This document shows positions 1 to 59,968 of a stretch of 64,000 nt of DNA, piece by piece; position 1 is the stretch's first letter, and each line of letters opens with the position of its first letter. The notes beneath the pieces are model-generated. The model searched no databases, was not told where the DNA came from, and worked only from the letters and a program-made list of their open reading frames with translations. Source of the DNA: Acidobacteriota bacterium (lineage in GTDB: Bacteria > Acidobacteriota > UBA6911); NCBI GenBank assembly GCA_012729555.1, contig JAAYCX010000051.1, positions 17,882 through 81,881 of the forward strand. Reading direction: 5' to 3'. The position numbers and the translations under genes were made by a program.

Positions 1-627
1 CATTACGAGGTCCTGAAACTCGCCCCCCGGTTCCTGCAGGAGACCGTGATGTTCCCCTACGGCTACGGCCCCTCTTTCCTGCAGCAGGCCTGGAAACGGA
101 AACCGTCGTGGGACGCCGTCAACGCCATCTATGCGGATCCGCCGGGGTCGACCGAACAGATCATGCACCCGGAAAAATATTTCGGGACCCGCGACATCCC
201 CCGGCCGGTGGATGCCGGGCCCTGGGCCGCCGCCCTGGGGGAGGAATGGAAGGTGGCCCACGCGCGGGTGATGGGGGAATTCGGGCTGGGCCTGCTGCTC
301 GGTCAGCACCTTACGGACGAGCGGGCGCGCAAGGGCGCCCGGGGCTGGGGGGGGGACCAGGCGCTGCTCGTGGAAAACAGGGCCGGGAAAACGGCCGTCC
401 TGATCCTGACCGAATGGGATACGGAGGACGAAGCCGCCAAGTTTTACGAGGCGATGCAGGCCTGGTTCCACAGGCGCAGCCCCAAAGCCGTACCCGGGGG
501 AAAGGATCCCGAAGGGTTCTCCCTGGTCCAGGACGGGGAGGTTCAGGCGCTCCGGCGCGAGGGTCTTTCGGTCCGGGTGATCGTGGGGCTCCCCGAATCC
601 GAGGCTCCGAAACTCGACGTCTTCTGA
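1..627 (+). CDS. hypothetical protein, 5'-truncated by the window edge (frame open from nt 1)
   Basis: Frame 1 is open from position 1 through the stop at 627 (HYEVLKLAPRFLQETVMFPYGYG...). Codon usage matches neighbouring genes. No recognisable family. Confidence 0.4.
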   Translation, partial: HYEVLKLAPRFLQETVMFPYGYGPSFLQQAWKRKPSWDAVNAIYADPPGSTEQIMHPEKYFGTRDIPRPVDAGPWAAALGEEWKVAHARVMGEFGLGLLLGQHLTDERARKGARGWGGDQALLVENRAGKTAVLILTEWDTEDEAAKFYEAMQAWFHRRSPKAVPGGKDPEGFSLVQDGEVQALRREGLSVRVIVGLPESEAPKLDVF

Positions 628-2842: not shown

Positions 2843-2854
2843 CCAGAGGCTGTC

Positions 2855-4458: not shown

Positions 4459-4558
4459 CCCGCCCCCCTGGACCCGCGGCGGACCGGACCGACTCCCGGA
4501 GGCGCGCGGGATGCTTTATGGTACCATCATCCCGAATCGAACCGAACTGGGGGTACAT

Positions 4559-12615: not shown

Positions 12616-12781
12616 AGAAGGGCACATGAGCCTTGTTTTTCCGCATGATCAAATGAGACCGGACACCCTCCCCGGTCCCGTCCGGCTTCCTCCCCATGAA
12701 AAAAGGAATCCCCGAGACTGAGACAAACGGTCGCATGGTTCGTAAGTATATGTGAATGGTTTTCCAAAGAGGTGTTCATCC

Positions 12782-13549: not shown

Positions 13550-13566
13550 GGAAAGGAGGGGACGTT

Positions 13567-24360: not shown

Positions 24361-26058
24361 ATGAAGCGTACACTGTTCCCCCTGGCCGCCCTCGCCCTCG
24401 GCGCCGCGGGAGTGCTGGCCCCGCCGGCACCCCTTGCGGCGGAGCCCTCCGCCCGGTACGAGGTCCTGAGCCCCTGGGCCGAGGTCGATCCCGTCCCCCT
24501 GCGGGGCCTTTCGCCCCGCCTCGATTCCCTGGCGGGAAAAAAGATCGGAATTTTCGCCAACTACAAGCGCGCGGCGCTGCCGGTGGCCGAGGCGATCGAA
24601 AAGAACCTGAAGACCCTCCACCCGGACATCCAGACCGTCCTCTTCCATTCGACCGAATGGAACGTCACCGAGGTCGAGACCGCCGACCGTGAAACGTTCA
24701 CCGCCTGGGCCAAGGGGGTGGACGCCGTCGTCGGCGTCATCGGCGATTGAGGATCCTGCACGAAGTTCCTCGTCTATAACGGCATATCGATCGAGGACTT
24801 CGGCACGCCGGTCGTGTTACTGGCACATCCAGGATTCGTAAGAGACGCACAGAGCGCAGCCTCCGGCAAGGGAATGCCGGGCATCAGGGTGCGCCCCATC
24901 CAAATAGCCAACGAAACCACCGTGGCCGCCGACATCGAAGCCGGCGCCTCCGGGGCGATGCCCGGCATCGTCGCCGCCCTGACCGATCCGCTGACGGCCG
25001 GGGAGCGCTCCCCCAAAAGGGATGCGGCCGCTCCCCCCCGCGTCGCCTTCGCGGGGGATTACGAGGCGGTCAACCGCTTCTTCTACCGCAAGGGGTGGAC
25101 CGACGGGCTCCCCATCGTCCCCCCGACCGAAAAGGCCGTGGCCGAAATGCTCGAGGGGACCGACCTGCCGCCCGACCACCTGGTGGCCCGCGTCATCCCG
25201 CGCCTGGGAAAGGCGACGGTCGAGAAGATCGCCGTCAACGCCGTCATGGCGGGGGCGCTGCCGACCCACATGCCGGTGCTCCTGGCCGCCGTGCGCGCGC
25301 TCATGAACCCGAAATCGCGCTTCGACACCTTCGAGGTGAGCACCGGGTCGTGGGCCCCCTTCTTCGCCCTCAACGGCCCCGTCCGCAATGACATCCTCGT
25401 CAATTCCGGCTCGGGCGCCCTCAGCCCGGGCGACATCGCCAACGCCGCCATCGGCCGCGCCGTGGGCCTCATCGTCAAGAACATCGGGGGGGCCCGCAAG
25501 GGGATCGAGGACATGGGCGTCATCGGCAACCCCTCCAAGTACAGCCTCGTCATCGGCGAAAACGAGGAGGAGAGCCCCTGGACCCCGCTGCACGTCGACC
25601 GCGGTTTCCGCAGGGAGGAGAGCACCCTGACCCTCTTCTTCCCCAACGGCTTCGCCCAGTCGGTCCCGCGCGCCACCAGCGCGGAGGGGATCGCCCGGGC
25701 GCTCGCCGACATGGGGCCCTGGAGCATGTCGTGCCTCATCGTCATCCCCTCCCACGCCCGCATCCTGGCCGACGAAGGGTGGACGAAGGAGAAGCTCCAG
25801 GAGTACATCCTCCGAAACGCCGCCGACCCCTTCGCCGCCATCGGCGAAAAACCGGACGTTTTGTCGGCGCCCCCGGCCCTCAACCGCGGCGGGTTGCTGA
25901 TCCTGGTCGCCGGCGGCCCCGGCGCCTGGATGGGGATGCTGCGCAGCGTGGGGGGGATCGAAAACGACTTCGTCACCGAGCCGATCGAGTTCCCCAAAAA
26001 CTGGGACTCCCTGGTAAGGAAGTACAGGAACGTCCGCCCCACCTACGAAGACTACTAG
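24361..26058 (+). CDS. candidate selenoprotein: ~130-aa secreted N-terminal domain ending in a U-G-S-C motif (in-frame TGA 24748-24750), continuing in-frame into a conserved ~415-aa domain (GWTDGLPIVPPTEKAVAEML...). Conventional annotation would split it into 24361-24750 and 24814-26058.
   Basis: TGA at codon 130 is followed by GGA TCC TGC (G-S-C). The downstream ORF is in the same frame (both start coordinates are 1 mod 3). An 11-bp bulged hairpin begins 11 nt after the TGA, where a bacterial SECIS would be expected. The paralog at 46809-48569 has the same architecture, with conserved sequence spanning the TGA. Confidence 0.5.
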
Positions 26059-27496: not shown

Positions 27497-27899
27497 ACCT
27501 CCCCCCTTTTTTTAGTGAACCTTGCGTCGCGCCCTCGGAACCGGCGCCCTGACGCGTTCACGCCGGTCCATGCAATCGGCGTGCCGCACCGCCCGGGAAG
27601 GCCGCGTCGGGGGAAGGGCCCGCATTCACGGCACTATCCATCCGGATCGCGCCGGGGCGGCGGCGCCGCACGGCCCGCGGAGGCGTGTCAAATTCAACAG
27701 CACTGTTGAATTTGACACAGTCCTGAAGCCTCCGCCGCCGGCCGCAGCCTTGCCCGGAGCCCTGAACGAAGACCGTTCTTCCGCTGTAACGCACAGGGGT
27801 CTATGCATTTGATCGTCCCCCGATTGGATGGACGGCTCCCGTCCCGCCGCGGTGGCCCCCGATTTGCTCCGATACCGGCGCAGAGCCGGGAGGTGCAGG

Positions 27900-30562: not shown

Positions 30563-30577
30563 GTTCAGGAGGACCGG

Positions 30578-34431: not shown

Positions 34432-34791
34432 CTAGAAGGTGAGGACCTTGTCGCTCTCCACCGTCCACCGGGCGAACTCCTTCATGTTGCTCAGCTGCAC
34501 CCCTTCGATGAAGGGGACCTTGTCGATGCCGCGGGCTTCGCTGCAGCCGCCGCAGCTCTTGACCTCCCCCCCTTTCAGGATCACCGATCGAAGCATCCGC
34601 TCGATGTTGTAATAACCGGTGGGGGTGCCCTGCCCGGGGAGGGCGCAGAAAACCGCATCCGCCAGGAGGAAGATCCTGACGGCCGCTTCCCCGCCGTGCT
34701 CCTTCTGCAGAGTCATGGCCATTCTCAGGGCGTTGTAGGCTTTCTCGGTCCCGTAGGGGGCGTCGTTGATGATGATGAGGATCTTCTGCAT
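34432..34791 (-). CDS. DsrE/DsrF(TusD)-like sulfur-relay family protein
   Basis: MQKILIIINDAPYGTEKAYNALRMA N-terminus and conserved Cys (CGGC) are typical of DsrE-like proteins. 119 aa. Confidence 0.7.
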   Translation of the reverse strand: MQKILIIINDAPYGTEKAYNALRMAMTLQKEHGGEAAVRIFLLADAVFCALPGQGTPTGYYNIERMLRSVILKGGEVKSCGGCSEARGIDKVPFIEGVQLSNMKEFARWTVESDKVLTF

Positions 34792-35516
34792 CTCTTCCAC
34801 TCCTCGATAGAGGATTCGTTGGTTCCGGAAACGGAATGGGAGGCATCGTCCCCGGCCGCGACGGGCAGGCCGCGCGCCTTCCAGTCGGCCACCCCTTCCT
34901 CCAGCCTCGACGCCCTGTAGCCCCGGGCCTTCAGCCTCTCCACCGCCTCGAGCGCAAGCACGCAGTAGGGGCCGCGGCAGTAGGCGACCACCTCGCGGTC
35001 GACCGGGAGTTCCGAGAGCTTCCGCTCCAGCTCGTCGAGCGGAACTGACAGCGCACCCGGGAGGTGCCCGGCGCGATATTCCTCGGGCGGGCGGACATCC
35101 AGGACCGTGACACCCCCGTCCCGGATTTTGGCCAGCAGTTGGCGTCGATCCACCGGGTCGAGGTCCCCTCGGGCCTCCATGAAACGCCGGGTGATCTCCC
35201 CGATCTCGGCCAGGCGGGCCTCGGCCAGCAGGCGCAGGGCCCGGAAAAACTCGCACACCTCCCCGTCCGCGAGCCTGTAAGTGACATAAAGTCCCTGCTT
35301 TTCGGCCTCCACGAGCCGTGCCTCGCGCAGTACCTTCAGATGCTGCGATACGTTGGGGAGCCCCATGCCGGCTTCCCGCGCAAGGACCTCCACCGTGCGC
35401 GGCCCCTGGCACAGCAGATCGAGCAATTCGAGCCTGCCGCCGTGGGACACCGCCTTCCCGATGCGGGCGAATTGCTCATAGATGGCCGTCTTGAAGCGTC
35501 GATTCGGGTTCGTCAT
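34725..35516 (-). CDS. ArsR/SmtB-family metalloregulator fused to a C-terminal rhodanese domain
   Basis: Winged HTH (LELLDLLCQGPRTVEVLAREAGMGLPNVSQHLKVLREARLV). Rhodanese active-site loop (VVAYCRGPYCVLA). The 3' end overlaps dsrE by 67 nt out of frame. Confidence 0.75.
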   Translation of the reverse strand: MTNPNRRFKTAIYEQFARIGKAVSHGGRLELLDLLCQGPRTVEVLAREAGMGLPNVSQHLKVLREARLVEAEKQGLYVTYRLADGEVCEFFRALRLLAEARLAEIGEITRRFMEARGDLDPVDRRQLLAKIRDGGVTVLDVRPPEEYRAGHLPGALSVPLDELERKLSELPVDREVVAYCRGPYCVLALEAVERLKARGYRASRLEEGVADWKARGLPVAAGDDASHSVSGTNESSIEEWKRCRRSSSSSTTPPTGPRKPTTP

Positions 35517-35699
35517 GATATTTCAGTATTTTGCTTTATATTGAATTATTGAGTTCCGGTCAACGCCTTTCCTCATCGGGGCGGTCCTTTTCTTCGTTTT
35601 TCGCATGCCTTCATCAGGGTTTTCCCTTATTGGCACCGCGGATGACGCCGGGCTAGAATTTCATGCATCTGGGTAGGAAAAACGGCATTTGCCCCCCCC

Positions 35700-37424
35700 A
35701 TGGAGGCAGTCATGCGCGATATCGTTTTGATAGTCGGCCTGGGCGTTTTCCTGTCCGCGTGCTCGGGCGGCGGCACGGATCCGGACGGCAACGACCCACC
35801 CCCGGTTTCGAGTGCGGCCACTGTCCTTGCGGCCAACGACCTGGGGATGCACTGCATCGACTCGGAGTTCTCGATTTTTTCGATCCTGCCCCCCTACAAC
35901 ATCGTCAACGCGCAGGTGGTCCGGCGGGACGGCTCCGGGCGCCCCTACCTGGCCGATCACACGGAGGTCAGGGTCACCTTCGACGCCGTCGCCGACCCCG
36001 CGGGGTCCGTCAACAGTTTCAGCCTGGGGAAAACCAATTTCTGGCAGTACGCCGGGGCGCTCTTCGGCATGACGCTCCCCGCAGGGGAGGGCCTGACCGG
36101 GGTGTACATGCCCCGGGAACAGCCCTACACCAACGGCCCCCAGCCCATGCCGTACCATCTCCAGAAAGCGGTCTTTCACGCCGAGGGGATCCCGATCACC
36201 CCCCTGGACGACGACCTGGAAAGCAACCCCTACCCGCTCCTTCGCATTGCCGCCGCCGATGCCGTAAGCGGGGCCGCGCTCGGCCACCTGGACGTGGTCG
36301 TCCCGGTTTCCGCCGAGACCGACTGCAAGACCTGCCACAAGACCGGGGCGATGGCCGCGAGCGACCCGGGCACCGCGTGGTCCCTGTCCCCGGACCTGGA
36401 GGTCCAGAGCAAGATCAACATCCTGAGGCTCCACGACGCCGGGCACCAGACCTCCCTGGAAGCCTCCCAGCCGGTCCTGTGCGCGGGGTGCCACTATTCG
36501 CCGGCGCTCGACCTGGCCGGCACGGGGCCGGCCGGCGCGCAGATCGGCAACCCGAATTTCTCGGGTGTCATGCACGAATTTCACGGAGGACTCGAGGCGA
36601 ACGGCCAGCCGGTCTTCCCCCCGGGCGCGACGGTGCAGGAGACGTGCTACCAGTGCCACCCGGGCAACGTCACCCAATGCCAGCGCGGGGCCATGAAGAC
36701 GGGCGGGATGGACTGCCACGCCTGCCACGGGGATATGCTCGCGGTGGGGGGCAGTTACGCCCTGCTGGCGGGGGGCAGCATCGACGGCACCAATGACGGC
36801 AACGCACGCAGGCCGTGGAAGGACCTGCCCCGCTGCCAGTCGTGCCACACGGGAGACGCCCTCGGCTACCTTGCCGGGTCCGCCCTGGCGGCCGATCCCG
36901 ACTGGCCCTTCAGGCTGCGCCAGGCCTACAGGACGGGAGACGCCGCCGCTTCCCCGCTCCTGGCGGCCAACAAGCGTTTTGCCGAGAACACGAACGCCCT
37001 GTACCGCGCGAGCAAGGGGCACGGGGGGATCCTGTGCGAAGGGTGCCACGGCAGCACCCATGCCGTCTGGCCCAACGCCTCGGCGGCCGCGAACGACAAC
37101 CTGGCCGCCGAGATGCTGCAGGGGCATGCGGGCCCGGTCATCGAATGCACCACCTGTCATGCGCCCTCGAGCCTGGCGCGCACGACCAGCGGTCCCCACG
37201 GCCTTCACAACGTCAACGACTCCCGGTGGTACGACGAAGGGCACGAGGAGTTCTACGAGAACAACAAGAACGGGTGCAAGGCGTGTCACGGGGCGAACCT
37301 GACCGGGACGCCGCTCGCCCGGGTGCCGGTCGCCCGGGCATTCAGCGTGGAGGGAAAAACGTTCAGTTACGCCCGGGGAGACATGGTGCGCTGCGACCGC
37401 TGCCACGGCATGCCCGATCTCTGA
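35700..37424 (+). CDS. multihaem c-type cytochrome lipoprotein (nine CxxCH motifs)
   Basis: Lipobox VFLSACSG. Haem sites CKTCH, CAGCH, CYQCH, CHACH, CQSCH, CEGCH, CTTCH, CKACH, CDRCH. Confidence 0.85.
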   Translation: MEAVMRDIVLIVGLGVFLSACSGGGTDPDGNDPPPVSSAATVLAANDLGMHCIDSEFSIFSILPPYNIVNAQVVRRDGSGRPYLADHTEVRVTFDAVADPAGSVNSFSLGKTNFWQYAGALFGMTLPAGEGLTGVYMPREQPYTNGPQPMPYHLQKAVFHAEGIPITPLDDDLESNPYPLLRIAAADAVSGAALGHLDVVVPVSAETDCKTCHKTGAMAASDPGTAWSLSPDLEVQSKINILRLHDAGHQTSLEASQPVLCAGCHYSPALDLAGTGPAGAQIGNPNFSGVMHEFHGGLEANGQPVFPPGATVQETCYQCHPGNVTQCQRGAMKTGGMDCHACHGDMLAVGGSYALLAGGSIDGTNDGNARRPWKDLPRCQSCHTGDALGYLAGSALAADPDWPFRLRQAYRTGDAAASPLLAANKRFAENTNALYRASKGHGGILCEGCHGSTHAVWPNASAAANDNLAAEMLQGHAGPVIECTTCHAPSSLARTTSGPHGLHNVNDSRWYDEGHEEFYENNKNGCKACHGANLTGTPLARVPVARAFSVEGKTFSYARGDMVRCDRCHGMPDL

Positions 37425-44987: not shown

Positions 44988-45896
44988 ATGCTGGACATTG
45001 AGGGGAAGGGGGCCTTCGTCACGGGGGGCGCCAGCGGGATCGGGCTCGGGATCGCCGAAGCGATGGTCGACGCCGGCATGAAGGTGGTGATCGCCGACAT
45101 GCAGGAGGACTACCTCGGGGAGGCCCTCCGGGGCTTCCGGCAGCGGGGGCGCGGAGAGAGCGTGCACGGGCTGCTCCTCGACGTGACCGACCGCGCGGCT
45201 TTCGAGCAGGCGGCCGACGAGGCGGAGGGGGTGTTCGGCAAAATTCACGTGCTCTCTGCCAACGCCGGCGTCGGCATCCTCGGCCCGGTCGGGGACGCGA
45301 AATACGGCGACTGGGACTGGGCCCTGGGAGTGATGGTCGGCGGCGTCGTCAACGCCCTCCAGGTTTTCCTCCCCCGCATCCTGCGCCACGGCGAGGGGGG
45401 GCACATCGTCGCCACCTCCTCCATGTCGGGGGTGCTCCCGCTGCCGGGCACCGCCATCTACTCGACGGCCAAGGGGGCGGTCGTGGCCCTGTGCGAGGCG
45501 CTGCGGGGGGAACTGGCCCCGGACAAGATCGGAATATCCGCCTTCTGCCCCGGGCCGGTGGCCACCCGGATCAGCCGGACCGGGCGTCTCCGGCCGGAAA
45601 AGTACCGGAAGGAGAGCGGCTACGCCGAAATGGAGCGCCGGATCGAGAACCGCCCCGCCTTCCGGAGCGAGATGAGCCCCGGGGAGTGCGGCCGGAGGGT
45701 GCTCGACGGCATCCGGCGCAACGATCTGTACATCTTCACCCACCGGGAATTCCGGGAAGGGGTCGCGGAAAAAATGGAGGCCATGCTCGCCTCCTTCCCG
45801 GACGAGCCGGTCGACGGCGCACGGGCGAAGGAATTCGCCTTTCTGACCTCCAATCCCATATACCGGGAGATCCTCGAAAGGAAGGGGCGCGCATGA
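44988..45896 (+). CDS. SDR-family short-chain dehydrogenase/reductase
   Basis: TGGASGIGLG Rossmann motif and YSTAK catalytic motif. Confidence 0.85.
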   Translation: MLDIEGKGAFVTGGASGIGLGIAEAMVDAGMKVVIADMQEDYLGEALRGFRQRGRGESVHGLLLDVTDRAAFEQAADEAEGVFGKIHVLSANAGVGILGPVGDAKYGDWDWALGVMVGGVVNALQVFLPRILRHGEGGHIVATSSMSGVLPLPGTAIYSTAKGAVVALCEALRGELAPDKIGISAFCPGPVATRISRTGRLRPEKYRKESGYAEMERRIENRPAFRSEMSPGECGRRVLDGIRRNDLYIFTHREFREGVAEKMEAMLASFPDEPVDGARAKEFAFLTSNPIYREILERKGRA

Positions 45897-46792
45897 AGAA
45901 CGTGGAAGGGAAGGTGGCCTTCATCACCGGCGGGGCGAGCGGCGCCGGCCTGGGGATGGCCCGGGTGTTTCTGAAAAACGGGATCCGGGTCGCGATCGCC
46001 GACATCCGCCGGGACAGCCTCGACCGCGCCATGGCCGGGTTCGAGCGGGGGGCGGAAGTGCACCCGATCCTGCTCGACGTGGCCGACCGCGAGGCGATGG
46101 CGCGCGCGGCCGACGAGACCGAACGGGTGTTCGGCCGGGTGCACATCGTGTGCAACAACGCCGGGATCAACCTCTTCGTCCCGATCGAGGAGTGCACCTA
46201 CAACGACTGGGACTGGGTCATGGGGGTCGATTTCGGCGGGGTGGTCAACGGCGTCCAGACCTTCGTCCCCCGCATCCGGCGGCACGGCGAAGGGGGCCAC
46301 ATCGTCAACACCGCCTCGATGGCCGCCTTCCTGCCGAGCCCGCTGGCGGGGGCGTACACGGCCGCCAAGTTCGCCGTGCGCGGCCTGAGCGAGGCGCTCC
46401 GGCTGAGCCTCTACCACCACAACATCGGCGTCTCGGTCTTCTGCCCCGGGCTGATCAACAGCGCGATCTACGAAAGCGAAAAGATGCGGCCCGATGCGCT
46501 CCCCTCGCCCGAAAACACCGAGCGCAACCGCCGCTTCATGGACCGGCTCCCCGAAATCCACCGGTTCGGGATGGACCCGGAGGAGGTGGGGGAAAAGGTC
46601 CTGGCCGGAATCCGCGCCAACGACCTCTACATCTTCAGCCACCCCGAATTCCGGGACGAACTGAGGGAGATGTTCGACCGGACGCTCGCGGCCGTCCCCG
46701 CGGGGGAGGTCCCGGCCGAGCGCCTGGCGTTCGAGCAGGGGCGGCGCGAGGGGCTCGAAAAGGACAGGAAAGGGGCCGACGCGATCGGCTGA
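45893..46792 (+). CDS. SDR-family short-chain dehydrogenase/reductase (tandem paralog)
   Basis: TGGASGAGLG and YTAAK motifs. ATGA overlap with the upstream SDR. Start at ATG 45893; the track's 45491 start is an extension. Confidence 0.85.
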   Translation: MKNVEGKVAFITGGASGAGLGMARVFLKNGIRVAIADIRRDSLDRAMAGFERGAEVHPILLDVADREAMARAADETERVFGRVHIVCNNAGINLFVPIEECTYNDWDWVMGVDFGGVVNGVQTFVPRIRRHGEGGHIVNTASMAAFLPSPLAGAYTAAKFAVRGLSEALRLSLYHHNIGVSVFCPGLINSAIYESEKMRPDALPSPENTERNRRFMDRLPEIHRFGMDPEEVGEKVLAGIRANDLYIFSHPEFRDELREMFDRTLAAVPAGEVPAERLAFEQGRREGLEKDRKGADAIG

Positions 46793-46808
46793 CAGGGAGA
46801 AACGTACG

Positions 46809-48569
46809 ATGACGACACGGAAACGGATGGTGGTGCTGAACCCGGAAGGCCCCCTGGTCCCGGTGACCGAAGGTTCGGGGGCGGGCGTTCCCCGCTGGGA
46901 GATGGCGGCGCGCCCCGAAAGCCTCGACGGCAAAACGGTGTACCTCGTCAACCAGGGCTTCGGGGGGAGCGATCGCTTCATGGAGCAGCTGCAGGCGTGG
47001 TTCGCCCGGCACATGCCGACGGTCCGGACCGTGGTGAAGCGCAAGACGGGCTTCATCTTCCGGGACGACACCCGCGACCTGTGGAAGGAGATCAAGGAAA
47101 AGGGGGACGCCGTCGTCTTCGGGGTCGCGGGTTGACCCGGCTGCGTCACGGCGGTCGCCGGATGTTGCCGCACCCTCGAGCTGAAATACGGGATCCCCAC
47201 CGCGCCGGTTTCGACCATCGCCTTTGAACGCATGGAGCGGGAAGACCGCGAGTTTCACGGGGTCCCCCTGCGCTTCGTCTTCACGCCCCACCCCGTGGTC
47301 TCGATGCCCCCCGCGGTCCTCGCCCGCTACATCGAGGGGAACGACCCGGCCACCGGGCGTCCGGTGATCGCGGAGATCCTCGAGGCCCTCACCCGCCCCT
47401 ATTCCGAAGAGGAGAGCCGCAACCACGCCGTCGTGCGCCCCGTCCCGGAGCACCGGCGCCTGCTCGAGCCGGACACGGAGGAAAACCTCGAGCGCCTGTT
47501 CACCGAGCGCGGGTGGAGCGACGGGCTCCCCGTCGTGCTGCCGACCGAGGAGCGGGTGGCGCGCATGCTCGCCGGCACCGGCCAGAGGCCCGACAAGCTG
47601 GCGGGGAAGGCGCTGCTCGTCGACACGCAGGAAACCCTGAGGGTCTCGGTCGAGGCGGTCGCCGTCGCCGCGGTGATGGCCGGGGCGGGGCCGGAGCACC
47701 TCCCGGTGCTGCTGGCCGTCGCCTCGGCGGGGCAGCCGGCGATCCAGCCCTCGACCCTCCCCTTCGCCAGCGCGCTCCTGGTCAACGGCCCGATCCGGGG
47801 CGAGATCGGGATGAATTCAGGGATGGGGGCCCTGGGACCCTACAGCCGGGCCAACGCCGTCATCGGGCGCGCCTGGACCCTGATGAGCATCCTGTGGGGA
47901 TACGCCCGGCCCCGCCGCACCTTCTGGACCTCCCAGGGGAACAACTATTCCTACAACAACCTCTGCATGGCCGAAAACGAGGAGCGGAGCGTCTGGGAGC
48001 CGTTTCACGTCACGAAGGGGCACGGCGCCGGCGAGAGCGTCGTCAGCCTCTTCCGGGGGTGGAACCTGATCAACAGCATGGGGGCCGCGGCCCGGCGCTC
48101 CTGGGGGGAGGAGGTCCGGATCCAGATGCAGGCGCTCCCCGCCCTCTATTCCGCCGCCACCCTGATCCTGGACCCGCTCACGGCGCGCCACCTCCGGGAG
48201 AACGAGGGGTTCGCAAGCAAGGCCGACGCGAGCCGCTGGATTTCCGAAAACGTGACCCTTCCCGCGGGCCGCTTCTGGGGCAACGACATCATCGACATGC
48301 TGGTGACGCCGCTGGCCCTGGCCGGGGTGAAGCCCTACGCCGACTGGAAGCGGCTGCCGGAGGACGCCCCCATCGCCCCCTACCACCGGCCGGACAAGGT
48401 GAACCTCCTGGTCGTGGGGGGGGAGACGAGCCCGTTGTGGAAGATTTCCGATTTCGACCATGTCGCCACCGTCTCCGTCGATCGGTGGCGTCCCGGCGCG
48501 CCCGCACCCCGGGGCGGGGAGGAAGGCGCGGACGGGGGGCGCGGCGCCTACGAGGGCACACGGGAGTGA
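46809..48569 (+). CDS. candidate selenoprotein, paralog of 24361-26058: ~108-aa N-terminal domain ending U-P-G-C (in-frame TGA 47133-47135), same-frame continuation into a conserved ~445-aa domain (GWSDGLPVVLPTEERVARML...). Conventional annotation would split it into 46809-47135 and 47232-48569.
   Basis: TGA at codon 109 is followed by CCC GGC TGC. 46809 and 47232 are both 0 mod 3. Sequence between the TGA and the first downstream Met is conserved with module 1 (...YNGISIEDFGTP / ...KYGIPTAPVSTI). A GC-rich imperfect hairpin lies at 47137-47161. Confidence 0.45.
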
Positions 48570-48570
48570 A

Positions 48571-49704
48571 ATGATCGGCCTCGTCAGCAGCCCGGACACC
48601 CGGCAGAAGCTCGAGATCCTGAGCGCGGACGCCCAGTACGACCTGGCGTGCGCCTGCGGCACCGGCAAGGACGACCGCCGGCGGCGAGGGTCCGGGGACG
48701 GCTGGATCTATCCCGTGACCCTCGCCGGCGGGGGCACGAGCGTCCTGTTCAAGACCCTGGTCTCGAACGTCTGCGCCAACGACTGCCTCTACTGCCCGCT
48801 GCGGGCGGACCAGGACGTGCGCCGCTGCGCCCTCACCGGGGAGGAGACCGTCCGGGCCTTCCTCGATTACTACACGCGCGGCAGGGTGTTCGGCCTCTTT
48901 CTCACCTCGGGGGTGCCGGGAACGCCCGACGCCGCCATGGAGCAGCTGATCCGCGTCGCCCGCATCCTGCGCACCCGGCACGGCTTCAGGGGCTACATCC
49001 ACCTCAAGATCATCCCGGGCGCCAGCGCCGCCGCCGTCGAGGAGGCGGTTTCCCTCTCGACCGCGGTCTCGCTCAACATCGAGACCCCCGGGGCGCGCCA
49101 CCTCGCCCGCCTCTCCCGGCGCAAGGACTTCCTGCACGACATCGTGGAGCCGATCAAGCTGGTCAGCCGCCTGACGGCCCCCGGCGCGCGCTACGAGCGG
49201 GTGAAGCAGACCACCCAGTTCGTGGTGGGGGCGGCGGAGGAGACCGACGCCGAGATCGTGCGCTACATGGGGGGGCTCTACGACCGGCTCCGGCTCCAGC
49301 GCGTCTACTTCAGCGCCTACCAGAAGGGGCCGGGGGACTCCGCGCCGGCGGGGGAGGGCGCACGGACCGGCCGGGACGCCCTGGCCCGGGAACACCGCCT
49401 CTACCAGGTCGATTTCCTGATGCGGCGGTACGGGTTCGCCGCCGCGGAGATCGGCTTCGACCCCTCCGGCAACCTCCCGCTGGAACTCGACCCGAAGGAG
49501 GAGTGGGCGCGGAGGCACCCGGAGTTCTTCCCGCTGGACATCAACCGCGCTCCCGCGCGCGACCTGCTGCGGGTCCCGGGGCTGGGGGAGGTCACCGTGC
49601 GCCGGATCGTGGAGCGGCGCAAGGGCTCGAGGATCCGGGCCCTCGACGAGGTGGCCCGTCCCACGGCGTGGATCCGGAAGGCGGGAGGATACCTCAGAGC
49701 CTAG
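48571..49704 (+). CDS. radical SAM protein, putative DNA modification/repair type (CxxxCxxC + C-terminal HhH)
   Basis: CANDCLYC cluster motif. C-terminal helix-hairpin-helix (DLLRVPGLGEVTVRRIV). Starts 2 nt after the selenoprotein-candidate stop. Confidence 0.7.
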   Translation: MIGLVSSPDTRQKLEILSADAQYDLACACGTGKDDRRRRGSGDGWIYPVTLAGGGTSVLFKTLVSNVCANDCLYCPLRADQDVRRCALTGEETVRAFLDYYTRGRVFGLFLTSGVPGTPDAAMEQLIRVARILRTRHGFRGYIHLKIIPGASAAAVEEAVSLSTAVSLNIETPGARHLARLSRRKDFLHDIVEPIKLVSRLTAPGARYERVKQTTQFVVGAAEETDAEIVRYMGGLYDRLRLQRVYFSAYQKGPGDSAPAGEGARTGRDALAREHRLYQVDFLMRRYGFAAAEIGFDPSGNLPLELDPKEEWARRHPEFFPLDINRAPARDLLRVPGLGEVTVRRIVERRKGSRIRALDEVARPTAWIRKAGGYLRA

Positions 49705-55711: not shown

Positions 55712-58700
55712 TTATCGTGGCCCGTCCCCGTTTTTCTTGGAGGTGAACAGGTCGTACAGGATGGGGAGCGCCACGAGGGTGAGGATGCCCGAGCTGAGGA
55801 TCCCCCCGAGCATCGCGATGCCGGCGCCGTTTCTCATTTCGGCGCCGATCCCCCGGCCGAAGGCCAGGGGGAGCATCCCGAGCACCGCGGCGATCGTGAT
55901 CATGGCGACGGGGCGGAAGCGCTCGCACGTCGCCTCGATCATCGCCCGGTGGCGCGGGACCCCCTCCCGGATGTGGACGTTGAACTGGTCGACGATCAGG
56001 ATGGCGTTGTTGACCACGATCCCCATCACCATGACGAAGGCCATGATCTCGAAGACGCCGAGGCTTCCCCCGGTCCAGACGAGGCCCCAGACGGTGCCGA
56101 TCAGCGCGAGCGGGACGGTGACCAGGATCAGCACCGGCTGGCGGAACGATTCCAGGATGGCGGCCAGCATGAGCACGATGAGGATGATCGACAGGACGCC
56201 GGCCTCGCCGAGCCCCTCGAGCCCCTCGCTCATGACCTCGTAGACCCCGCCGAACCGGTAGCCGTACCGCGGGGGGAAATCCCCCTCGGCGTCGAGCCGG
56301 GCGCTCACCTGCTCCACGGCGCTGCCGAGAGGCAGCTCCGGAGCGAGGTTGGCGTAGACCTTCGACATGCGCTCCTTGTCCTTGCGGGTCAGGAGGATGG
56401 GGGCCGCCCCCTCCTCGACCGAGGCCACGGTGCCGAGCAGCACCGGCCGGCCGGGGGCGCCGGGGAGGAGAAAGGCGTCGACCTGTGCCCTCCCGGTCTG
56501 CTCCGCGAACTTGACCACGATGTCGTAGTTGCGCGCGTTCCGCTTGAAGGTGCCCGCGGCGATCCCCTCGAGGTTGGCCCTCAGGTTCATCCCCACCTCG
56601 AGCACCGGGTAGGCGAGGTCGGAGAGCACCTCCCGCTTCGGCACGATCCGCAGCTCCGGCTTCCCCTCCCGCACGGAGTGGTCGATGTCGGTGACACCCG
56701 GGATCGGGGCCACGAGTTCGCCGGCGGCCAAAGCCAGCCGGTCGAGGGTGCCGTACTCCTCCCCGGTGATCTCCAGTTCCAGGTCGCTCCCCTGCCCCCC
56801 GATGATCACCGGGACGTTCACGGTGACGATCGCCCCCGGATAGTCGGCGAGCCGGGCGCGGACCTCGGCGATGATCCCCTCGAGCGTCCGCTCGCGCTCG
56901 TCCCGTTCGGAGAACTTGAGGAGGATCTGGGCGAGGTGGACCCCCTCGGACGTCTGCCCCACCATCCCCTCCACCTTCCCGACGGTGCTCAGCATGTGCC
57001 GGAGCTCCGGCAGGTCCCGCAGGCGCGCCTCGGCCTCCCGCACCCGCTCGGCCGTGCGCGACAGGGCGTTGCCGGTGGGGTATTCCAGCTTGACGAACAG
57101 CTTCCCCTGGTCGGAGTCGGTCATCATGTTCGTCCCCATCCGGCCGGCGGCCAGCAGCGAAAGGGCGAAGAGGACGCCCACCAGGGCGAGGACCAGGACG
57201 GCGGCCCAGCGGTGCCGCTCGTTGTACTCGAGCAGCCCCCGCAAGGCGCGGGTAACGGCCGAGAAGCCGCGGTTCCACCCCCGCTCCAGGGCGGCGAGCG
57301 GGGAGCGCCCCCCCTCCCGGGGCGGCTTGAGCAGCAGGGAGCAGAGCATCGGCGTCAGGGTGAAGGAGACCAGGAGCGACACCGCCGTCATGATCAGCAT
57401 GGTCAAAGCCAGCGCCCGGATGAAAAGTCCGATCATCGAATCCATCATCGCCAGGGGGAAGAGGACGACCACGTTGGTGGCGATGCTCGCGAGCACGGCG
57501 ACCGTCGCCTCCGACGTGCCTGCCCGGGCCGCTTCCCGCGGGTCGCCCGACCGGTCGAAACGCTTCACGATCGCCTCGAGGACCACGATGGAGTTGGTGA
57601 CCAGGATCCCCACCGAAAGCCCCACGGCGATCAGGGTGGAGGCGTTCAGCGTCAACCCGGCCAGCTCCATGAAGAAGAGGCCGATGACGATGGTCAGCGG
57701 CATCGTGATCGCCACCACCAGGAGGGAGCGGAGGTTGTGGAGAAAGAGGAGGAGGATCAGGGCGGTCAGGAGGATCCCCTGCAGCACGTCGACCCAGGCG
57801 CTCCGGTTCATCGCCTCGATGAAGCGGCCGTCGTCGGCCACCCAGACCAGCTGCATCCCCCCCGGCAGGACGGCCCCGATGTCGTCCATCGCCTCCCTGA
57901 CGGCGCCCACCACCCGGACCGCGTTCGCGTCCGACCGCTTGATCACCCTCAGGGCCACCGCCGGCCGGCCGTCGACCGCCGCCTCCTGCCGCATCTCCTC
58001 GGTGGCCATGAGCACCGTGCCGACATCCCCGATCCGGGTGCGCTGCCCGCCCGAGCCGGCGATCTCGAGCTTCTCCAGCTCCCCGATGTCGTCGTAGTCG
58101 GCGTCGAACTTGACCGCGAACTCCGAGCCGCCGTCCCGCAGGTTGCCCGAGGGGATGGTCCGCACCCCCTGCCGGATCGCCCGGACGACGTCCATCGTCG
58201 ACAGCCCGCGCGCACCGAGGCGCCCGCGGTCGATCCGGACCTGGACCTCCCGCCGGGCGCCCCCGACGAGCTGCACGTCGGCCACCCCCGGGATCATCGT
58301 GATCCGGTCGCGAAGGGTGTTGTCGGCGTAGTCGAAGATCTCGTCGATGGGGGCGTCGCCCGCCAGCGCCAGGTCCACGACCGGGGCGGCGTTGAGGTCG
58401 TACTTCTGGATGATGGGGTCCTCGACATCCTCGGGCAGGTCGGCCCGGATCATGTCGAGCTTTTCCCGGACGTCGGTGGCGGCGATGTCGACGTCCACCC
58501 CGAGGTGGAATTCGAGCAGCGTCTGGCACATGTTCTCCATCGAGGAGGAGGTCACGTGCTTCAGCCCGTCGACGCTGACCACGGCGTCCTCGATCCGCTT
58601 GGCCACGTCGGTCTCGATCTCCTCCGGCGTCGCCCCGGGGTAGACCGTGACCACGGTGATGTAGGGGATGTCGACCCTGGGCATCAGCTCCAGCCCCAGC

Positions 58701-58792
58701 TTCCGGGCCGAATTGAGGCCCAGCAGCGCCAGCGCGATGATCAGGGAGCCCATCGCCACGGGCCTTTTGACCGAAGCGGCGGAAAGAAACAT
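55712..58792 (-). CDS. RND efflux permease (HAE1/AcrB-like)
   Basis: About 1026 aa, 12 TM plus large periplasmic loops; AcrB-family N-terminus MFLSAASVKRPVAMGSLIIALALLG. Start at ATG 58792; the track's 58903 start is an extension. Confidence 0.85.
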   Translation of the reverse strand: MFLSAASVKRPVAMGSLIIALALLGLNSARKLGLELMPRVDIPYITVVTVYPGATPEEIETDVAKRIEDAVVSVDGLKHVTSSSMENMCQTLLEFHLGVDVDIAATDVREKLDMIRADLPEDVEDPIIQKYDLNAAPVVDLALAGDAPIDEIFDYADNTLRDRITMIPGVADVQLVGGARREVQVRIDRGRLGARGLSTMDVVRAIRQGVRTIPSGNLRDGGSEFAVKFDADYDDIGELEKLEIAGSGGQRTRIGDVGTVLMATEEMRQEAAVDGRPAVALRVIKRSDANAVRVVGAVREAMDDIGAVLPGGMQLVWVADDGRFIEAMNRSAWVDVLQGILLTALILLLFLHNLRSLLVVAITMPLTIVIGLFFMELAGLTLNASTLIAVGLSVGILVTNSIVVLEAIVKRFDRSGDPREAARAGTSEATVAVLASIATNVVVLFPLAMMDSMIGLFIRALALTMLIMTAVSLLVSFTLTPMLCSLLLKPPREGGRSPLAALERGWNRGFSAVTRALRGLLEYNERHRWAAVLVLALVGVLFALSLLAAGRMGTNMMTDSDQGKLFVKLEYPTGNALSRTAERVREAEARLRDLPELRHMLSTVGKVEGMVGQTSEGVHLAQILLKFSERDERERTLEGIIAEVRARLADYPGAIVTVNVPVIIGGQGSDLELEITGEEYGTLDRLALAAGELVAPIPGVTDIDHSVREGKPELRIVPKREVLSDLAYPVLEVGMNLRANLEGIAAGTFKRNARNYDIVVKFAEQTGRAQVDAFLLPGAPGRPVLLGTVASVEEGAAPILLTRKDKERMSKVYANLAPELPLGSAVEQVSARLDAEGDFPPRYGYRFGGVYEVMSEGLEGLGEAGVLSIILIVLMLAAILESFRQPVLILVTVPLALIGTVWGLVWTGGSLGVFEIMAFVMVMGIVVNNAILIVDQFNVHIREGVPRHRAMIEATCERFRPVAMITIAAVLGMLPLAFGRGIGAEMRNGAGIAMLGGILSSGILTLVALPILYDLFTSKKNGDGPR

Positions 58793-59967
58793 CAGCGATC
58801 CTTCCCGACGACCGTGACCGGGTCGCCGTCCCGCAGCAGGTCGTTCCCCGCCGTGACCACCTCGGCGCCGGGCGCCAGATCCCCGCCGGTGATTTCCACC
58901 CAACCGTCCGTCTCGAGCCCCGTGGAGACCTCCACCAGGCGGGCCCGGTCGCCGTCGCGGACGAAGACCACCCGCCCGTCGGTCCGGGCCGTGAGCGCCT
59001 CCCTCGGGACCCCCGGCCCCTCCCGTTTCTCGAGGAGCACCTCCATCCGTGCGATCCTCCCGGGCACGATCCCGGCCGGGGGGTCCTGGATCAGGCAGCG
59101 GATTTCAAAGGTCCGCAGGTCGGAACTGACGGTCGGACTCTTGTAGGAAACGGCCCGGTTGCGCAGCACGGTGTCCCCCACGTGCACGTCCACCCGGGTC
59201 TTCCCCGGGGTGACGCGCGCGAAGGCTTCCTCGGGGAGAAAGGCCGACACCTCCACCGTGGAGAGGTCCTCGATCCGGAGCACGGGGGTCCCCGCCCCCG
59301 CCATCTCCCCCGGCTCGAGGAGCCGCCGCGTGACCACCCCTCCGATCGGGGCCGTGACCAGGGAGTCCCGGAGGTCCTTTTCGGTGATCGCCAGGTTCGT
59401 CCGGGCCTGCTCCATCCTCTTCCGGGCCAGGTCCACGGCTATCCCGGCGTGCTTTTTCGCCGCCTCCATCTGCAAAAAGTGCGACTCCCTCGCCTCGAAG
59501 GCGCTGGCCGTCACCGCCTTGTCCTGCTCGTACAACCGCCGGAAGCGCTCGTAGTCCAGTTTGACCTTGTCGTAGTCCGCCTCGACCTGCTCCTGGTTGG
59601 CCTGCCGCTCGAGCACGCCGTATTCCGCGACGGCCAGTTCCTGCCGCGCCGCCTCCACCGCCTTCCCCAGTTTCAGGGCGTCGGTCTGGAACAGGCGCGT
59701 CTCCCCCGCCGTCACCCGGTCCCCCTCGTCGACGAAGATGGCGTCCAGGGTCCCCGGGATGCGGGCGGAAACGAGCGCCTCCCGCTTGACCTGGACATCG
59801 CCCGACGGCGAGAGGACCGAGAGAAACGTCCTCTGCCGCACGGTTTCCACCCGGACGCTTTTCGTCCCCGCCGGCGCCGGCGGCTTTTCCCCGCCCCCCC
59901 GGCAAGCGGGGAGGAGGAGCGCCAGCACGAGCGCGGCGATCGAAGCGTAACCCTTTCCCTGTTTCAT
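58792..59967 (-). CDS. RND efflux periplasmic adaptor (MFP, lipoprotein)
   Basis: Lipobox LLLPACRG. HlyD/AcrA-like lipoyl and beta-barrel segments. TGATG overlap with the permease. Confidence 0.8.
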   Translation of the reverse strand: MKQGKGYASIAALVLALLLPACRGGGEKPPAPAGTKSVRVETVRQRTFLSVLSPSGDVQVKREALVSARIPGTLDAIFVDEGDRVTAGETRLFQTDALKLGKAVEAARQELAVAEYGVLERQANQEQVEADYDKVKLDYERFRRLYEQDKAVTASAFEARESHFLQMEAAKKHAGIAVDLARKRMEQARTNLAITEKDLRDSLVTAPIGGVVTRRLLEPGEMAGAGTPVLRIEDLSTVEVSAFLPEEAFARVTPGKTRVDVHVGDTVLRNRAVSYKSPTVSSDLRTFEIRCLIQDPPAGIVPGRIARMEVLLEKREGPGVPREALTARTDGRVVFVRDGDRARLVEVSTGLETDGWVEITGGDLAPGAEVVTAGNDLLRDGDPVTVVGKDR

Positions 59968-59968
59968 A

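What the first reader, a model, noticed from the sequence alone, without database searches (positions are those of the whole stretch)
46809..48569. Second, paralogous candidate selenoprotein module (U-P-G-C) in the same frame configuration
This has the same architecture as 24361-26058. A 108-codon ORF ends at TGA 47133-47135, followed by CCC GGC TGC (U-P-G-C), then continues in-frame into a conserved ~445-aa domain (GWSDGLPVVLPTEERVARML...).

The segment between the TGA and the first downstream Met is conserved between the two paralogs. That is hard to explain unless it is translated. Two independent paralogs both preserving frame across the TGA (chance about 1/9) and both preserving the U-x-x-C spacing argues for read-through rather than two adjacent genes.

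The genomic context differs. This copy follows two tandem SDR genes and is followed, 2 nt later, by a DNA-repair-type radical SAM gene. Module 1 follows an MFS transporter and precedes tRNA-Arg.
Basis: partly seen in the sequence, partly recalled or inferred. Interest (0 to 1): 0.8.

Follow-up and report, generated by a model that had tools for sequence, protein, structure and literature searches.

The report
Long-form UGSC selenoprotein gene
The two adjacent reading frames at 46809-48569 are one gene for a 586-residue selenocysteine-containing protein of the already described but functionally unknown "UGSC" family, which gene-calling software routinely cuts in two at the selenocysteine codon.

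Summary
ATG 46809 to TGA 48567-48569 is one ORF with an in-frame TGA (47133-47135) followed by P-G-C.

Evidence for selenocysteine:
- The Pfam UGSC domain (PF24696) matches across the TGA.
- The two window paralogs align colinearly, U on U.
- The TGA is conserved in 79 of 79 related genomic loci from at least eight phylum- or class-level lineages.
- 125 of 152 full-length single-ORF homologs have CxxC at that position.
- The 32 codons after the TGA evolve as coding sequence.
- A hairpin with a GGUC loop 21-24 nt after the UGA covaries in TGA forms and is absent from TGC forms.

This is not a new kind of selenoprotein. UGSC-containing proteins were reported in 2007-2008, including a fusion to an unnamed domain. 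NCBI and UniRef already name about 550-aa Cys forms "UGSC family (seleno)protein".

Recurrent neighbours are an SDR dehydrogenase and a thioredoxin-reductase-like flavoprotein. The radical SAM gene is incidental.

I infer a selenol/thiol-dependent reductase acting on a small substrate. Its function is untested.

The parts
46809..48569 (+). Complete gene for a 586-residue long-form UGSC selenoprotein (Sec at residue 109). Gene callers split it into a 108-aa ORF and a 445-aa ORF.
   Evidence: Homologs of 540-610 aa in a single ORF cover 90-96% of it at 41-47% identity.
46795..46799 (+). GGGAG ribosome-binding site, 9 nt upstream of ATG 46809.
   Evidence: Read directly from the sequence. No comparable site precedes ATG 47232.
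47133..47135 (+). In-frame TGA read as selenocysteine (U109), the first residue of the U-P-G-C motif at 47133-47144.
   Evidence: TGA sits at the aligned codon in 79/79 loci. Cys occupies the aligned residue in 125/152 full-length homologs.
47138..47170 (+). SECIS-like hairpin: 13 bp, bulged A at 47148, apical loop GGUC at 47153-47156 (nt 21-24 counted from the U of UGA).
   Evidence: Fold. The hairpin is conserved and covaries across 76 distinct sequences. It is absent from 29 TGC forms.
46896..47312 (+). UGSC domain (residues 30-168), an alpha/beta flavodoxin/Rossmann-like domain that carries the U-x-x-C motif.
47421..48488 (+). C-terminal domain of about 360 residues (residues ~205-560) with no family assignment. 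Motifs: GWSDGLPVVLPTE, AVAAVMAGAGPEHLPVLLA, VNGPIRGEIGMN, ANAVIGRA, QGN, AENEERSVWEPFHV, VVGG, VSVDRWR.
44988..45896 (+). SDR dehydrogenase 1. It is the first gene of the apparent operon and overlaps the start of SDR 2 by 4 nt.
   Evidence: Pfam adh_short, E 3.7e-43. Related SDRs adjoin the selenoprotein gene in 19 of 80 loci.
45893..46792 (+). SDR dehydrogenase 2. Its stop lies 16 nt before the selenoprotein start codon.
   Evidence: Pfam adh_short, E 7.2e-45. Neighbouring SDRs in Actinomycetes loci are up to 62% identical to it.
24361..26058 (+). Paralog of 565 residues with D-U-G-S-C (TGA at 24748-24750) and a signal-peptide-like N-terminus.
   Evidence: PF24696: 84.8 bits. Hairpin after the UGA has fold z-score -2.4.

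Best explanation
Window 46809-48569 is one gene for a cytoplasmic 586-residue selenoprotein of the UGSC family, long form.

Shown by computation:
- The UGA at codon 109 is decoded as selenocysteine with the help of a hairpin that starts 5 nt downstream and presents a GGUC loop 21-24 nt from the UGA.
- Sec109 and Cys112 form a U-x-x-C redox pair on an N-terminal alpha/beta (flavodoxin/Rossmann-like) domain.
- That domain is always fused to a conserved C-terminal domain of about 360 residues, which has no detectable relative among named families and no solved structure sharing its whole fold.

Inferred, not shown:
- The selenolate acts as the nucleophile or reductant toward a small substrate held by the C-terminal domain.
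- It is resolved by Cys112 into a selenenyl-sulfide.
- It is then re-reduced by a thioredoxin-reductase-like flavoprotein or by the general thiol system.
- The two co-transcribed SDR dehydrogenases act on the same substrate, for example by interconverting a hydroxyl and a carbonyl next to the bond that is reduced.

The gene is ordinary in kind (a known selenoprotein family) but is mis-split in public annotation.
For: - The profile match spans the TGA: PF24696 residues 30-168, 62.7 bits; NF041046 residues 40-167.
- The paralogs align through the TGA, E 2e-39.
- In the 93%-identical relatives, the 32 codons between the TGA and the first Met carry 5 synonymous and 3 non-synonymous codon changes.
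- In 24 acidobacterial sequences (the window plus 23 orthologs), entropy by codon position after the TGA is 0.34/0.16/1.02, the signature of coding sequence.
- Downstream-ORF calls in homologs start at different places. One starts at a GTG directly after U-P-G-C, so there is no conserved start.
- TGA is at the aligned codon in 79/79 loci from Acidobacteriota, Dehalococcoidia, Desulfatiglans, Latescibacterota, Bacillota, Actinomycetes and Alpha-, Beta- and Gammaproteobacteria.
- 125/152 full-length single-ORF homologs have CxxC there, one of them with the same C-P-G-C.
- The hairpin covaries: score 0.248 against a shuffled 0.098, with 0/500 shuffles reaching it, and it beats every slid register.
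- 58/76 and 27/30 TGA forms have a stem of at least 5 bp with its loop at nt 20-24. By contrast, 0/29 TGC forms have the core pairs in the same peptide context.
- TGA also serves as an ordinary stop in this window: at this gene's own end and at the end of SDR 2.
- Context: SDRs adjoin the gene in 19 of 80 loci and TrxB-like flavoproteins in 12 of 80. TrxB-like genes sit directly downstream of the Cys forms in Microbacterium and Ramlibacter.
Against: - No Sec machinery (selA, selB, selD) was found among the ORFs scanned in the 64-kb window, and no tRNA-Sec was found in the window. The genome-level requirement is therefore untested.
- The window hairpin on its own is not more stable than shuffled GC-rich sequence (z -0.57). 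Its significance rests on comparative data.
- Many full-length family members have neither Sec nor Cys at the motif (27 of 152). The redox pair is therefore not essential to whatever the C-terminal domain does.
- Paralog 1 carries a signal peptide, which argues against a universal NAD(P)H/TrxR-coupled cytoplasmic mechanism.
- No substrate, cofactor site or catalytic residue has been identified.
- The models' coordinates could not be inspected, so it is not known whether the U-x-x-C faces the C-terminal domain.
Confidence: 0.88

Rival explanations
1. There are two separate genes: a short 108-residue UGSC-like protein that ends at TGA 47133, and an independent downstream gene starting at ATG 47232. 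This is how every gene caller has annotated the relatives.
For: All 120 closest database proteins are downstream fragments of 407-475 aa, and the upstream 108-aa ORF is called separately.
Against: - A 108-residue product would be only the first part of the UGSC domain (profile positions 15 to about 94 of 172) and would lack the C of U-x-x-C.
- The 32 codons between the two ORFs are the most conserved part of the region and evolve as coding sequence.
- The called start sites are not conserved, and there is no ribosome-binding site before 47232.
- Cys homologs are single ORFs.
Confidence: 0.03
2. The gene is a pseudogene, or carries a sequencing error, so that a nonsense mutation interrupts a former Cys codon (TGC to TGA).
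For: A single-base change TGC to TGA would produce the pattern. One related locus (L061) shows additional disruptions.
Against: The TGA is conserved in 79/79 independent genomes and in 32 metagenome contigs. Both flanks are under strong purifying selection. A co-evolving downstream hairpin is found only in TGA forms. The same arrangement is present in the second paralog in the window.
Confidence: 0.02
3. The protein is a genuine selenoprotein, but the U-x-x-C domain is a regulatory or structural redox switch, or a metal or metalloid binding site, rather than a catalytic nucleophile. The C-terminal domain would then carry out non-redox chemistry or binding on its own.
For: - 27 of 152 full-length relatives have lost both Sec and Cys yet keep every C-terminal motif.
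- The invariant C-terminal residues (P, M, G, R354, E389) include no Cys.
Against: Sec is costly and is almost always catalytic (established knowledge). Dedicated TrxB-like and SDR/AKR oxidoreductase neighbours point to redox turnover. The Sec segment shows a profile similarity to the GrdB/PrdB reductase Sec segment (hhalign probability 88%).
Confidence: 0.25

Closest known systems
UGSC-containing protein / "UGSC family (seleno)protein" (Pfam PF24696; NCBIfam NF041046). First reported by Zhang and Gladyshev in 2007-2008 (PMC1976440, PMC2398784); listed in reviews PMC9312934 and PMC13188914.
   Same: - The N-terminal domain matches PF24696 above threshold.
- U-x-x-C sits at the family's Sec position, and both Sec and Cys forms exist.
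- Function is unknown in the literature.
- PMC2398784 reports a "UGSC/Unknown_1 fusion".
- NCBI and UniRef already give the UGSC name to about 550-aa single-ORF Cys forms that are 41-47% identical over 90-96% of this protein.
   Different: - The motif here is U-P-G-C rather than U-G-S-C.
- The protein is 586 aa against the 147-position NF041046 model, and it scores 49 bits against that model's cut-off of 125.
- Whether the C-terminal domain is the "Unknown_1" of the 2008 paper cannot be read, because that figure is an image.
- The 2008 paper guessed a thioredoxin-like fold. The model here shows a flavodoxin/CheY/Rossmann-like alpha/beta domain instead.
Selenoprotein B subunits of glycine/sarcosine/betaine reductase and D-proline reductase (GrdB/PrdB, Pfam PF07355).
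   Same: - A U-x-x-C motif follows a beta-strand (D-A-x-x-x-x-x-x-U-x-x-C) and is followed by ...LE..GIPTV.
- hhalign of the UGSC-domain alignment against three GOS PrdB-like selenoproteins gives probability 88.4%, E 2.8e-6, 83 columns, with the motif aligned.
- From established knowledge, those systems are re-reduced by thioredoxin reductase/thioredoxin. A TrxB-like gene is a recurrent neighbour here.
   Different: - There is no PF07355 hit even at E<=10.
- No pyruvoyl-subunit gene (GrdE/PrdA) and no GrdA appear in the neighbourhoods listed.
- The C-terminal domain has no counterpart in Grd/Prd.
- The PrdB-like comparison set was only three metagenomic reads, two of which match PF07355 weakly.
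Bacterial SECIS element of the E. coli fdhF type (own knowledge: a hairpin directly after the UGA, a GGUC apical loop with essential G23/U24, and a bulged U).
   Same: The hairpin begins 5 nt after the UGA. The apical loop is GGUC, with G22/U23 counted from the U of UGA. One bulged base lies 5' of the upper stem: A in the window, U in the 93%-identical relatives.
   Different: No Rfam family matched. Part of the family, the Dehalococcoidia and U-E-A-C clades, uses a shifted register with a 3-nt GUA or GUG loop. Binding to SelB is untested.

Membership tests
Pfam PF24696 UGSC domain family | Profile HMM score above the gathering threshold (25 bits). | tested here: met
   62.7 bits, E 6.4e-17, residues 30-168, spanning the TGA at residue 109. 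The paralog scores 84.8 bits.
Pfam PF24696 UGSC domain family | Sec or Cys followed by x-x-C at the family's motif position. | tested here: met
   U-P-G-C at residues 109-112 aligns with C-S-T-C, C-P-G-C or C-G-S-C of single-ORF homologs.
NCBIfam NF041046 "UGSC family (seleno)protein" (equivalog, 147 positions) | Whole-protein score at or above the curated cut-off of 125 bits. | tested here: not met
   49.4 bits for this copy and 59 bits for paralog 1. Long Cys forms that sources already name UGSC family also score only 64-69 bits.
Bacterial selenoprotein gene (Sec-decoded UGA) | In-frame UGA with conserved coding sequence on both sides. | tested here: met
Bacterial selenoprotein gene (Sec-decoded UGA) | Homologs carry Cys at the position of the UGA. 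| tested here: met
   125 of 152 full-length homologs; 35 TGC and 32 TGA forms among the metagenome loci.
Bacterial selenoprotein gene (Sec-decoded UGA) | A SECIS hairpin immediately 3' of the UGA, with G/U in the apical loop at a fixed distance. | tested here: met
   Hairpin at 47138-47170 with loop GGUC at +21..24. Covariation 0.248 against 0.098 shuffled, 0/500. Present in TGA forms and absent from TGC forms. This is a computational result only.
Bacterial selenoprotein gene (Sec-decoded UGA) | The genome encodes selA, selB, selC (tRNA-Sec) and selD. | not testable with these tools
   None was found among the ORFs scanned in the 64-kb window, and no tRNA-Sec was found in it. The rest of the genome is not available.
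Bacterial selenoprotein gene (Sec-decoded UGA) | Selenium is incorporated into the full-length polypeptide. | not testable with these tools
   This requires 75Se labelling or mass spectrometry.
GrdB/PrdB selenoprotein B family (PF07355) | Profile match to PF07355. | tested here: not met
   No hit at E<=10.
GrdB/PrdB selenoprotein B family (PF07355) | Homology of the segment that carries the Sec. | tested here: inconclusive
   hhalign probability 88.4%, E 2.8e-6 over 83 columns, but against an alignment of only three sequences.
GrdB/PrdB selenoprotein B family (PF07355) | Partner genes for the pyruvoyl subunit (GrdE/PrdA) and GrdA in the same cluster. | tested here: not met
   No such Pfam families occur among the neighbours in the window or in loci L001-L008.
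Thioredoxin-fold thiol/selenol oxidoreductases (fold proposed for UGSC in PMC2398784) | Thioredoxin fold of the motif-bearing domain. | tested here: not met

The most novel reading that the evidence does not exclude
The C-terminal domain of about 360 residues is a new enzyme fold. No Pfam model matches it, no solved structure shares its whole fold, and the search with the 477-residue post-TGA sequence (which also contains the second half of the UGSC domain) matched about 3,700 clusters at 50% identity.

Together with its fused Sec/Cys-x-x-Cys domain and the recurrent pair of SDR dehydrogenases, it would form a previously undescribed selenol/thiol-dependent pathway for reductive bond cleavage of a small organic acid. 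The SDRs would oxidise a neighbouring hydroxyl to activate the bond. The selenolate would attack it. The selenenyl-sulfide would then be re-reduced by a dedicated TrxB-like flavoprotein.

This logic is analogous to glycine/proline reductase or to the Lig beta-etherase system, but it uses unrelated parts.
Probability: 0.2. Interest if true: 0.7.

Novelty: new member of a known kind. Interest (0 to 1): 0.35.

Why it matters
In practical terms, this gene and its relatives are systematically mis-annotated. All 120 closest database entries are truncated downstream fragments, and each of the four relatives whose contigs were inspected has a separately called 102- or 108-aa UGSC ORF upstream. Selenoproteome counts for Acidobacteriota, Dehalococcoidia and other lineages are therefore too low, and the domain fusion is hidden.

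In scientific terms, UGSC was one of the most abundant selenoprotein families in the aquatic metagenomes surveyed, and it still has no known function.

The analysis here supplies testable leads:
- The long form is widespread across phyla and occurs with Sec, with Cys, or with no redox motif.
- The motif-bearing domain is flavodoxin/Rossmann-like and possibly related to the GrdB/PrdB Sec segment.
- Its steady genomic partners are an SDR and a TrxB-like reductase.
- Its C-terminal domain has no solved structural relative for the whole fold.

Tried and rejected
- **Family searches on the C-terminal domain.** Pfam and NCBIfam found nothing, even at E<=10.
- **PDB sequence searches.** A single-sequence search and a profile search gave only chance-level hits.
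- **Rfam scan of the window.** It found only tRNA-Arg and no SECIS family.
- **Single-sequence folding of the window hairpin.** It was not significant against shuffles (z -0.57), so I relied on comparative analysis instead.
- **The \"Unknown_1\" fusion domain of PMC2398784.** I tried to read it. The figure panel is an image, and the stored sequence file is cut before most UGSC entries.
- **The radical SAM gene as a functional partner.** Rejected: it occurs in 0 of 80 related loci, and it is absent in the 93%-identical relatives.
- **An alternative genetic code with TGA as a sense codon.** Rejected, because TGA terminates this gene and SDR 2.
- **A full-length U-to-C version of the window protein.** I therefore used the post-TGA part, and a Cys homolog for the full-length model.
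Full report
**Observation**

An ORF starts at ATG 46809, preceded by GGGAG at 46795-46799. It reaches an in-frame TGA at 47133-47135 (codon 109), followed by CCC GGC TGC, and stays open to TGA 48567-48569, giving 586 codons. The next ATG is at 47232 and has no ribosome-binding site.

The paralog at 24361-26058 has TGA at 24748-24750 followed by G-S-C. The two read-through products align as one colinear segment: 30% identity over 470 residues, E 2e-39, with U opposite U.

Three details of the finding needed correction:
- The radical SAM gene starts 1 nt after the stop, not 2.
- The 445-aa downstream ORF is not one domain.
- The MFS gene beside paralog 1 is on the other strand.

**What the N-terminal part is**

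With U replaced by C, residues 30-168 match Pfam PF24696 "UGSC family" (62.7 bits against a cut-off of 25). Residues 40-167 match NCBIfam NF041046 "UGSC family (seleno)protein" (49 bits, below its cut-off of 125). In both cases the match runs straight across the TGA. A product ending at codon 108 would be a truncated domain without the resolving Cys.

**Is the TGA read through?**

Several independent lines say yes.

(a) *Close relatives.* The 93%-identical relatives (L001-L003) keep the TGA. In the 32 codons between the TGA and Met142 they differ by 5 synonymous and 3 non-synonymous codon changes. Across 24 acidobacterial sequences (the window plus 23 orthologs), entropy by codon position in those 32 codons is 0.34/0.16/1.02, a clear coding signature. 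That segment is more conserved than the 32 codons before the TGA.

(b) *No conserved downstream start.* The 120 closest database proteins are all downstream fragments of 407-475 aa, and their called starts are scattered. They range from a GTG immediately after U-P-G-C to positions about 65 residues further on.

(c) *Conservation of the TGA.* A scan of one genome per species returned 80 loci at 39-93% identity. They come from Acidobacteriota, Dehalococcoidia, Desulfatiglans, Latescibacterota, Bacillota, Actinomycetes and Alpha-, Beta- and Gammaproteobacteria. The codon aligned to the window TGA is TGA in all 79 that can be read, with motifs UPGC, UDGC, USTC, UHGC, USSC, USMC and UNGC.

(d) *Cys homologs.* Searching every 50%-identity representative, and then searching with a profile, revealed many single-ORF proteins of 530-620 aa with the same two-domain layout. 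Of 152 such proteins, 125 have CxxC at the aligned position. Most have G-H-C-S-T-C, and one has the same C-P-G-C. This is the classical Sec/Cys criterion.

(e) *TGA is also a stop.* TGA is used as an ordinary stop in the same window, which excludes a recoded genetic code.

**The SECIS element**

Right after the UGA the RNA folds into a 13-bp hairpin (47138-47170) with one bulged A and the apical loop GGUC at nt 21-24 from the U of UGA.

Taken alone, this fold is no better than shuffled GC-rich sequence (z -0.57). The comparative evidence is what counts:
- In 76 distinct TGA-form sequences, the loop and its distance from the UGA stay fixed while the stem sequences change in a compensatory way: CGGC/GCCG, CCGGA/UCCGG, CCGAC/GUCGG, CCCAC/GUGGG, CCCGC/GCGGG, GGAGC/GCUUC.
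- For a 7-bp test structure the covariation score is 0.248 against 0.098 in shuffles (0 of 500 reach it). It exceeds every slid register, the best of which scores 0.160.
- Some clades (Dehalococcoidia and U-E-A-C forms) use a register shifted by 1-2 nt, with a GUA or GUG loop.

The decisive control came from a metagenome scan seeded with a Cys form. It gave 35 TGC forms and 32 TGA forms.
- TGA forms: 58 of 76 (genome set) and 27 of 30 (metagenome set) have a stem of at least 5 bp with its loop at nt 20-24. Mean MFE is about -12 kcal/mol.
- TGC forms: 0 of 29 have the core pairs. The mean best stem is 3.8 bp and mean MFE is -5.4 kcal/mol.
- This holds although the encoded peptide context is the same (C/U-S-T-C-A-P-A-V).

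The hairpin is therefore tied to the TGA and not to the protein sequence. From my own knowledge, it resembles the E. coli fdhF SECIS (GGUC loop, G23/U24, bulged U). Rfam has no matching family.

**How known is this?**

UGSC-containing proteins were reported as selenoproteins of unknown function in 2007-2008. They were among the most abundant selenoprotein families in the Global Ocean Sampling data, and a "UGSC/Unknown_1 fusion" was noted (PMC1976440, PMC2398784). Recent reviews still list the family without a function (PMC9312934, PMC13188914).

NCBI and UniRef already give the name "UGSC family (seleno)protein" to about 550-aa Cys forms from Ramlibacter, Variovorax, Roseomonas, Neorhizobium and Microbacterium. 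These are 41-47% identical to the window protein over 90-96% of its length.

The window gene is thus a new, mis-split member of a known family, in its long form. I could not verify that "Unknown_1" is this C-terminal domain, because the figure is an image.

**Structure**

- An AlphaFold model of the Cys homolog P0279 (582 aa, 47% identical) is confident: pLDDT 91.6, pTM 0.91.
- A model of the window's own C-terminal part (residues 201-586) is also confident: pLDDT 89.9, pTM 0.90.
- Neither Pfam nor PDB sequence searches find anything.

The invariant residues in a 28-sequence alignment are P245, M253, V281, A291, G292, P299, G327, P328, R354 and E389. There is no conserved Cys in the C-terminal domain.

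**A lead on ancestry**

The stretch D-A-x6-U-x-x-C ... L-E-x-x-G-I-P-T-V resembles the Sec segment of PrdB/GrdB-like selenoproteins. hhalign of the UGSC-domain alignment against three such metagenomic sequences gives probability 88.4%, E 2.8e-6, with the motifs aligned.

This is only a lead. The comparison set is tiny, only two of the three sequences match PF07355 and do so weakly, the window protein does not hit PF07355, and no GrdE/PrdA/GrdA partners are nearby.

**Genomic context**

In the window the gene is third in an apparent operon:
- SDR 1 at 44988-45896.
- SDR 2 at 45893-46792, overlapping SDR 1 by 4 nt.
- The selenoprotein, 16 nt further on.
- A radical SAM/HhH gene 1 nt after its stop (48571-49704; TIGR03916, 283 bits against a cut-off of 343.5).

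Across 80 related loci, the only recurrent neighbours are:
- An SDR of about 300 aa, 44-62% identical to the window SDRs, in 19 loci from several phyla (21 loci by ORF clustering).
- A TrxB-like flavoprotein of about 310 aa, in 12 loci.

The radical SAM gene occurs in none of the 80 loci. It is also absent from the 93%-identical relatives, which otherwise share the window's gene order.

The Cys forms have these neighbourhoods:
- Ramlibacter and Microbacterium: followed directly by the TrxB-like gene (TIGR01292, 270-282 bits, below its cut-off of 343), with TctC/TctA carboxylate-transport genes and a LysR or GntR regulator close by.
- Variovorax: an aldo-keto reductase and TctC flank the gene.

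**Mechanism**

Shown by computation: a Sec/Cys-x-x-Cys pair sits on an alpha/beta domain that is fused to a conserved domain of unknown fold, and the gene is associated with NAD(P)H-dependent carbonyl reductases and a thioredoxin-reductase-like enzyme.

Inferred, with confidence of about 0.4:
- The selenolate reduces or attacks a small, probably carboxylate-bearing substrate bound by the C-terminal domain.
- Cys112 resolves the adduct to a selenenyl-sulfide.
- A TrxB-like or general thiol system regenerates it.
- The SDRs process the same molecule.

Points against a universal version of this:
- 27 of 152 full-length relatives lack the redox pair altogether.
- Paralog 1 and several other members have signal-peptide-like N-termini.

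**Limits**

No selA/B/D was found among the ORFs scanned in the window, and no tRNA-Sec was found in it. The genome requirement is therefore untested. The model coordinates could not be inspected. Nothing here is experimental.

**Verdict**

The finding is real and correctly interpreted as a selenoprotein paralog. It belongs to a family known for nearly two decades, so it rates as a new member of a known kind with moderate-to-low interest. The residual interest lies in the uncharacterised, widespread C-terminal domain and its conserved partners.

Noticed in passing
window 24361-26058: Paralog 1 (D-U-G-S-C) begins with a signal-peptide-like sequence (MKRTLFPLAALALGAAGVLAPPAPLAAEPS). It may therefore be an exported selenoprotein, unlike the cytoplasmic-looking copy 2. 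Several distant family members (P0141, P0194, P0216, P0240) also have hydrophobic N-termini.
   Followed up: partly
L057, L060, L078, L080, L085 (Actinomycetes/Gaiellales MAGs), about 2300-5400 in locus coordinates: In L085, two copies of the long UGSC selenoprotein gene lie in tandem. The upstream copy runs in frame into the downstream one without a stop, giving a 547-codon ORF before the TGA. The other four loci also have long upstream ORFs (458-575 codons), but only L085 was shown to hold a second copy. This could be a real fusion or tandem duplication, or an assembly artefact.
   Followed up: partly
window 48571-49704: This is a radical SAM plus helix-hairpin-helix gene matching TIGR03916 (putative DNA modification/repair radical SAM protein, 283 bits, below the cut-off of 343.5). 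It sits 1 nt after the selenoprotein stop. No uracil-DNA-glycosylase-like partner gene was identified next to it. The gene is absent at this position in the 93%-identical relatives L001-L003.
   Followed up: partly
window 12746-15621: A 4Fe-4S ferredoxin-like gene is followed by an aldehyde:ferredoxin oxidoreductase (AFOR_N/AFOR_C) gene, that is, a tungsten or molybdenum pterin enzyme.
   Followed up: no
window 34725-35522 (-) and 35646-37424 (+): An ArsR-type regulator fused to a rhodanese domain is divergently oriented from a multihaem c-type cytochrome (MtrC/MtrF-like, cytochrome c7/c3 motifs).
   Followed up: no
window 27813-33721 and 55712-60075: There are two RND efflux gene sets. One has an outer-membrane factor, a CusB/HlyD-type adaptor with a heavy-metal-binding domain, and an AcrB-type pump. 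The other has an AcrB-type pump and a HlyD-type adaptor. The first looks like a metal-efflux system.
   Followed up: no
L061 4001-5361: One acidobacterial ortholog (80% identity) has an extra stop about 30 codons after the Sec codon and a disrupted upstream ORF. It is possibly a decaying copy or an assembly error.
   Followed up: no
P0183, P0209, P0210, P0222 (700-741 aa): These larger proteins match the C-terminal domain in two separate stretches. In the full-length alignment they do not align at the UGSC motif. They represent a different architecture built from the same unknown domain.
   Followed up: no
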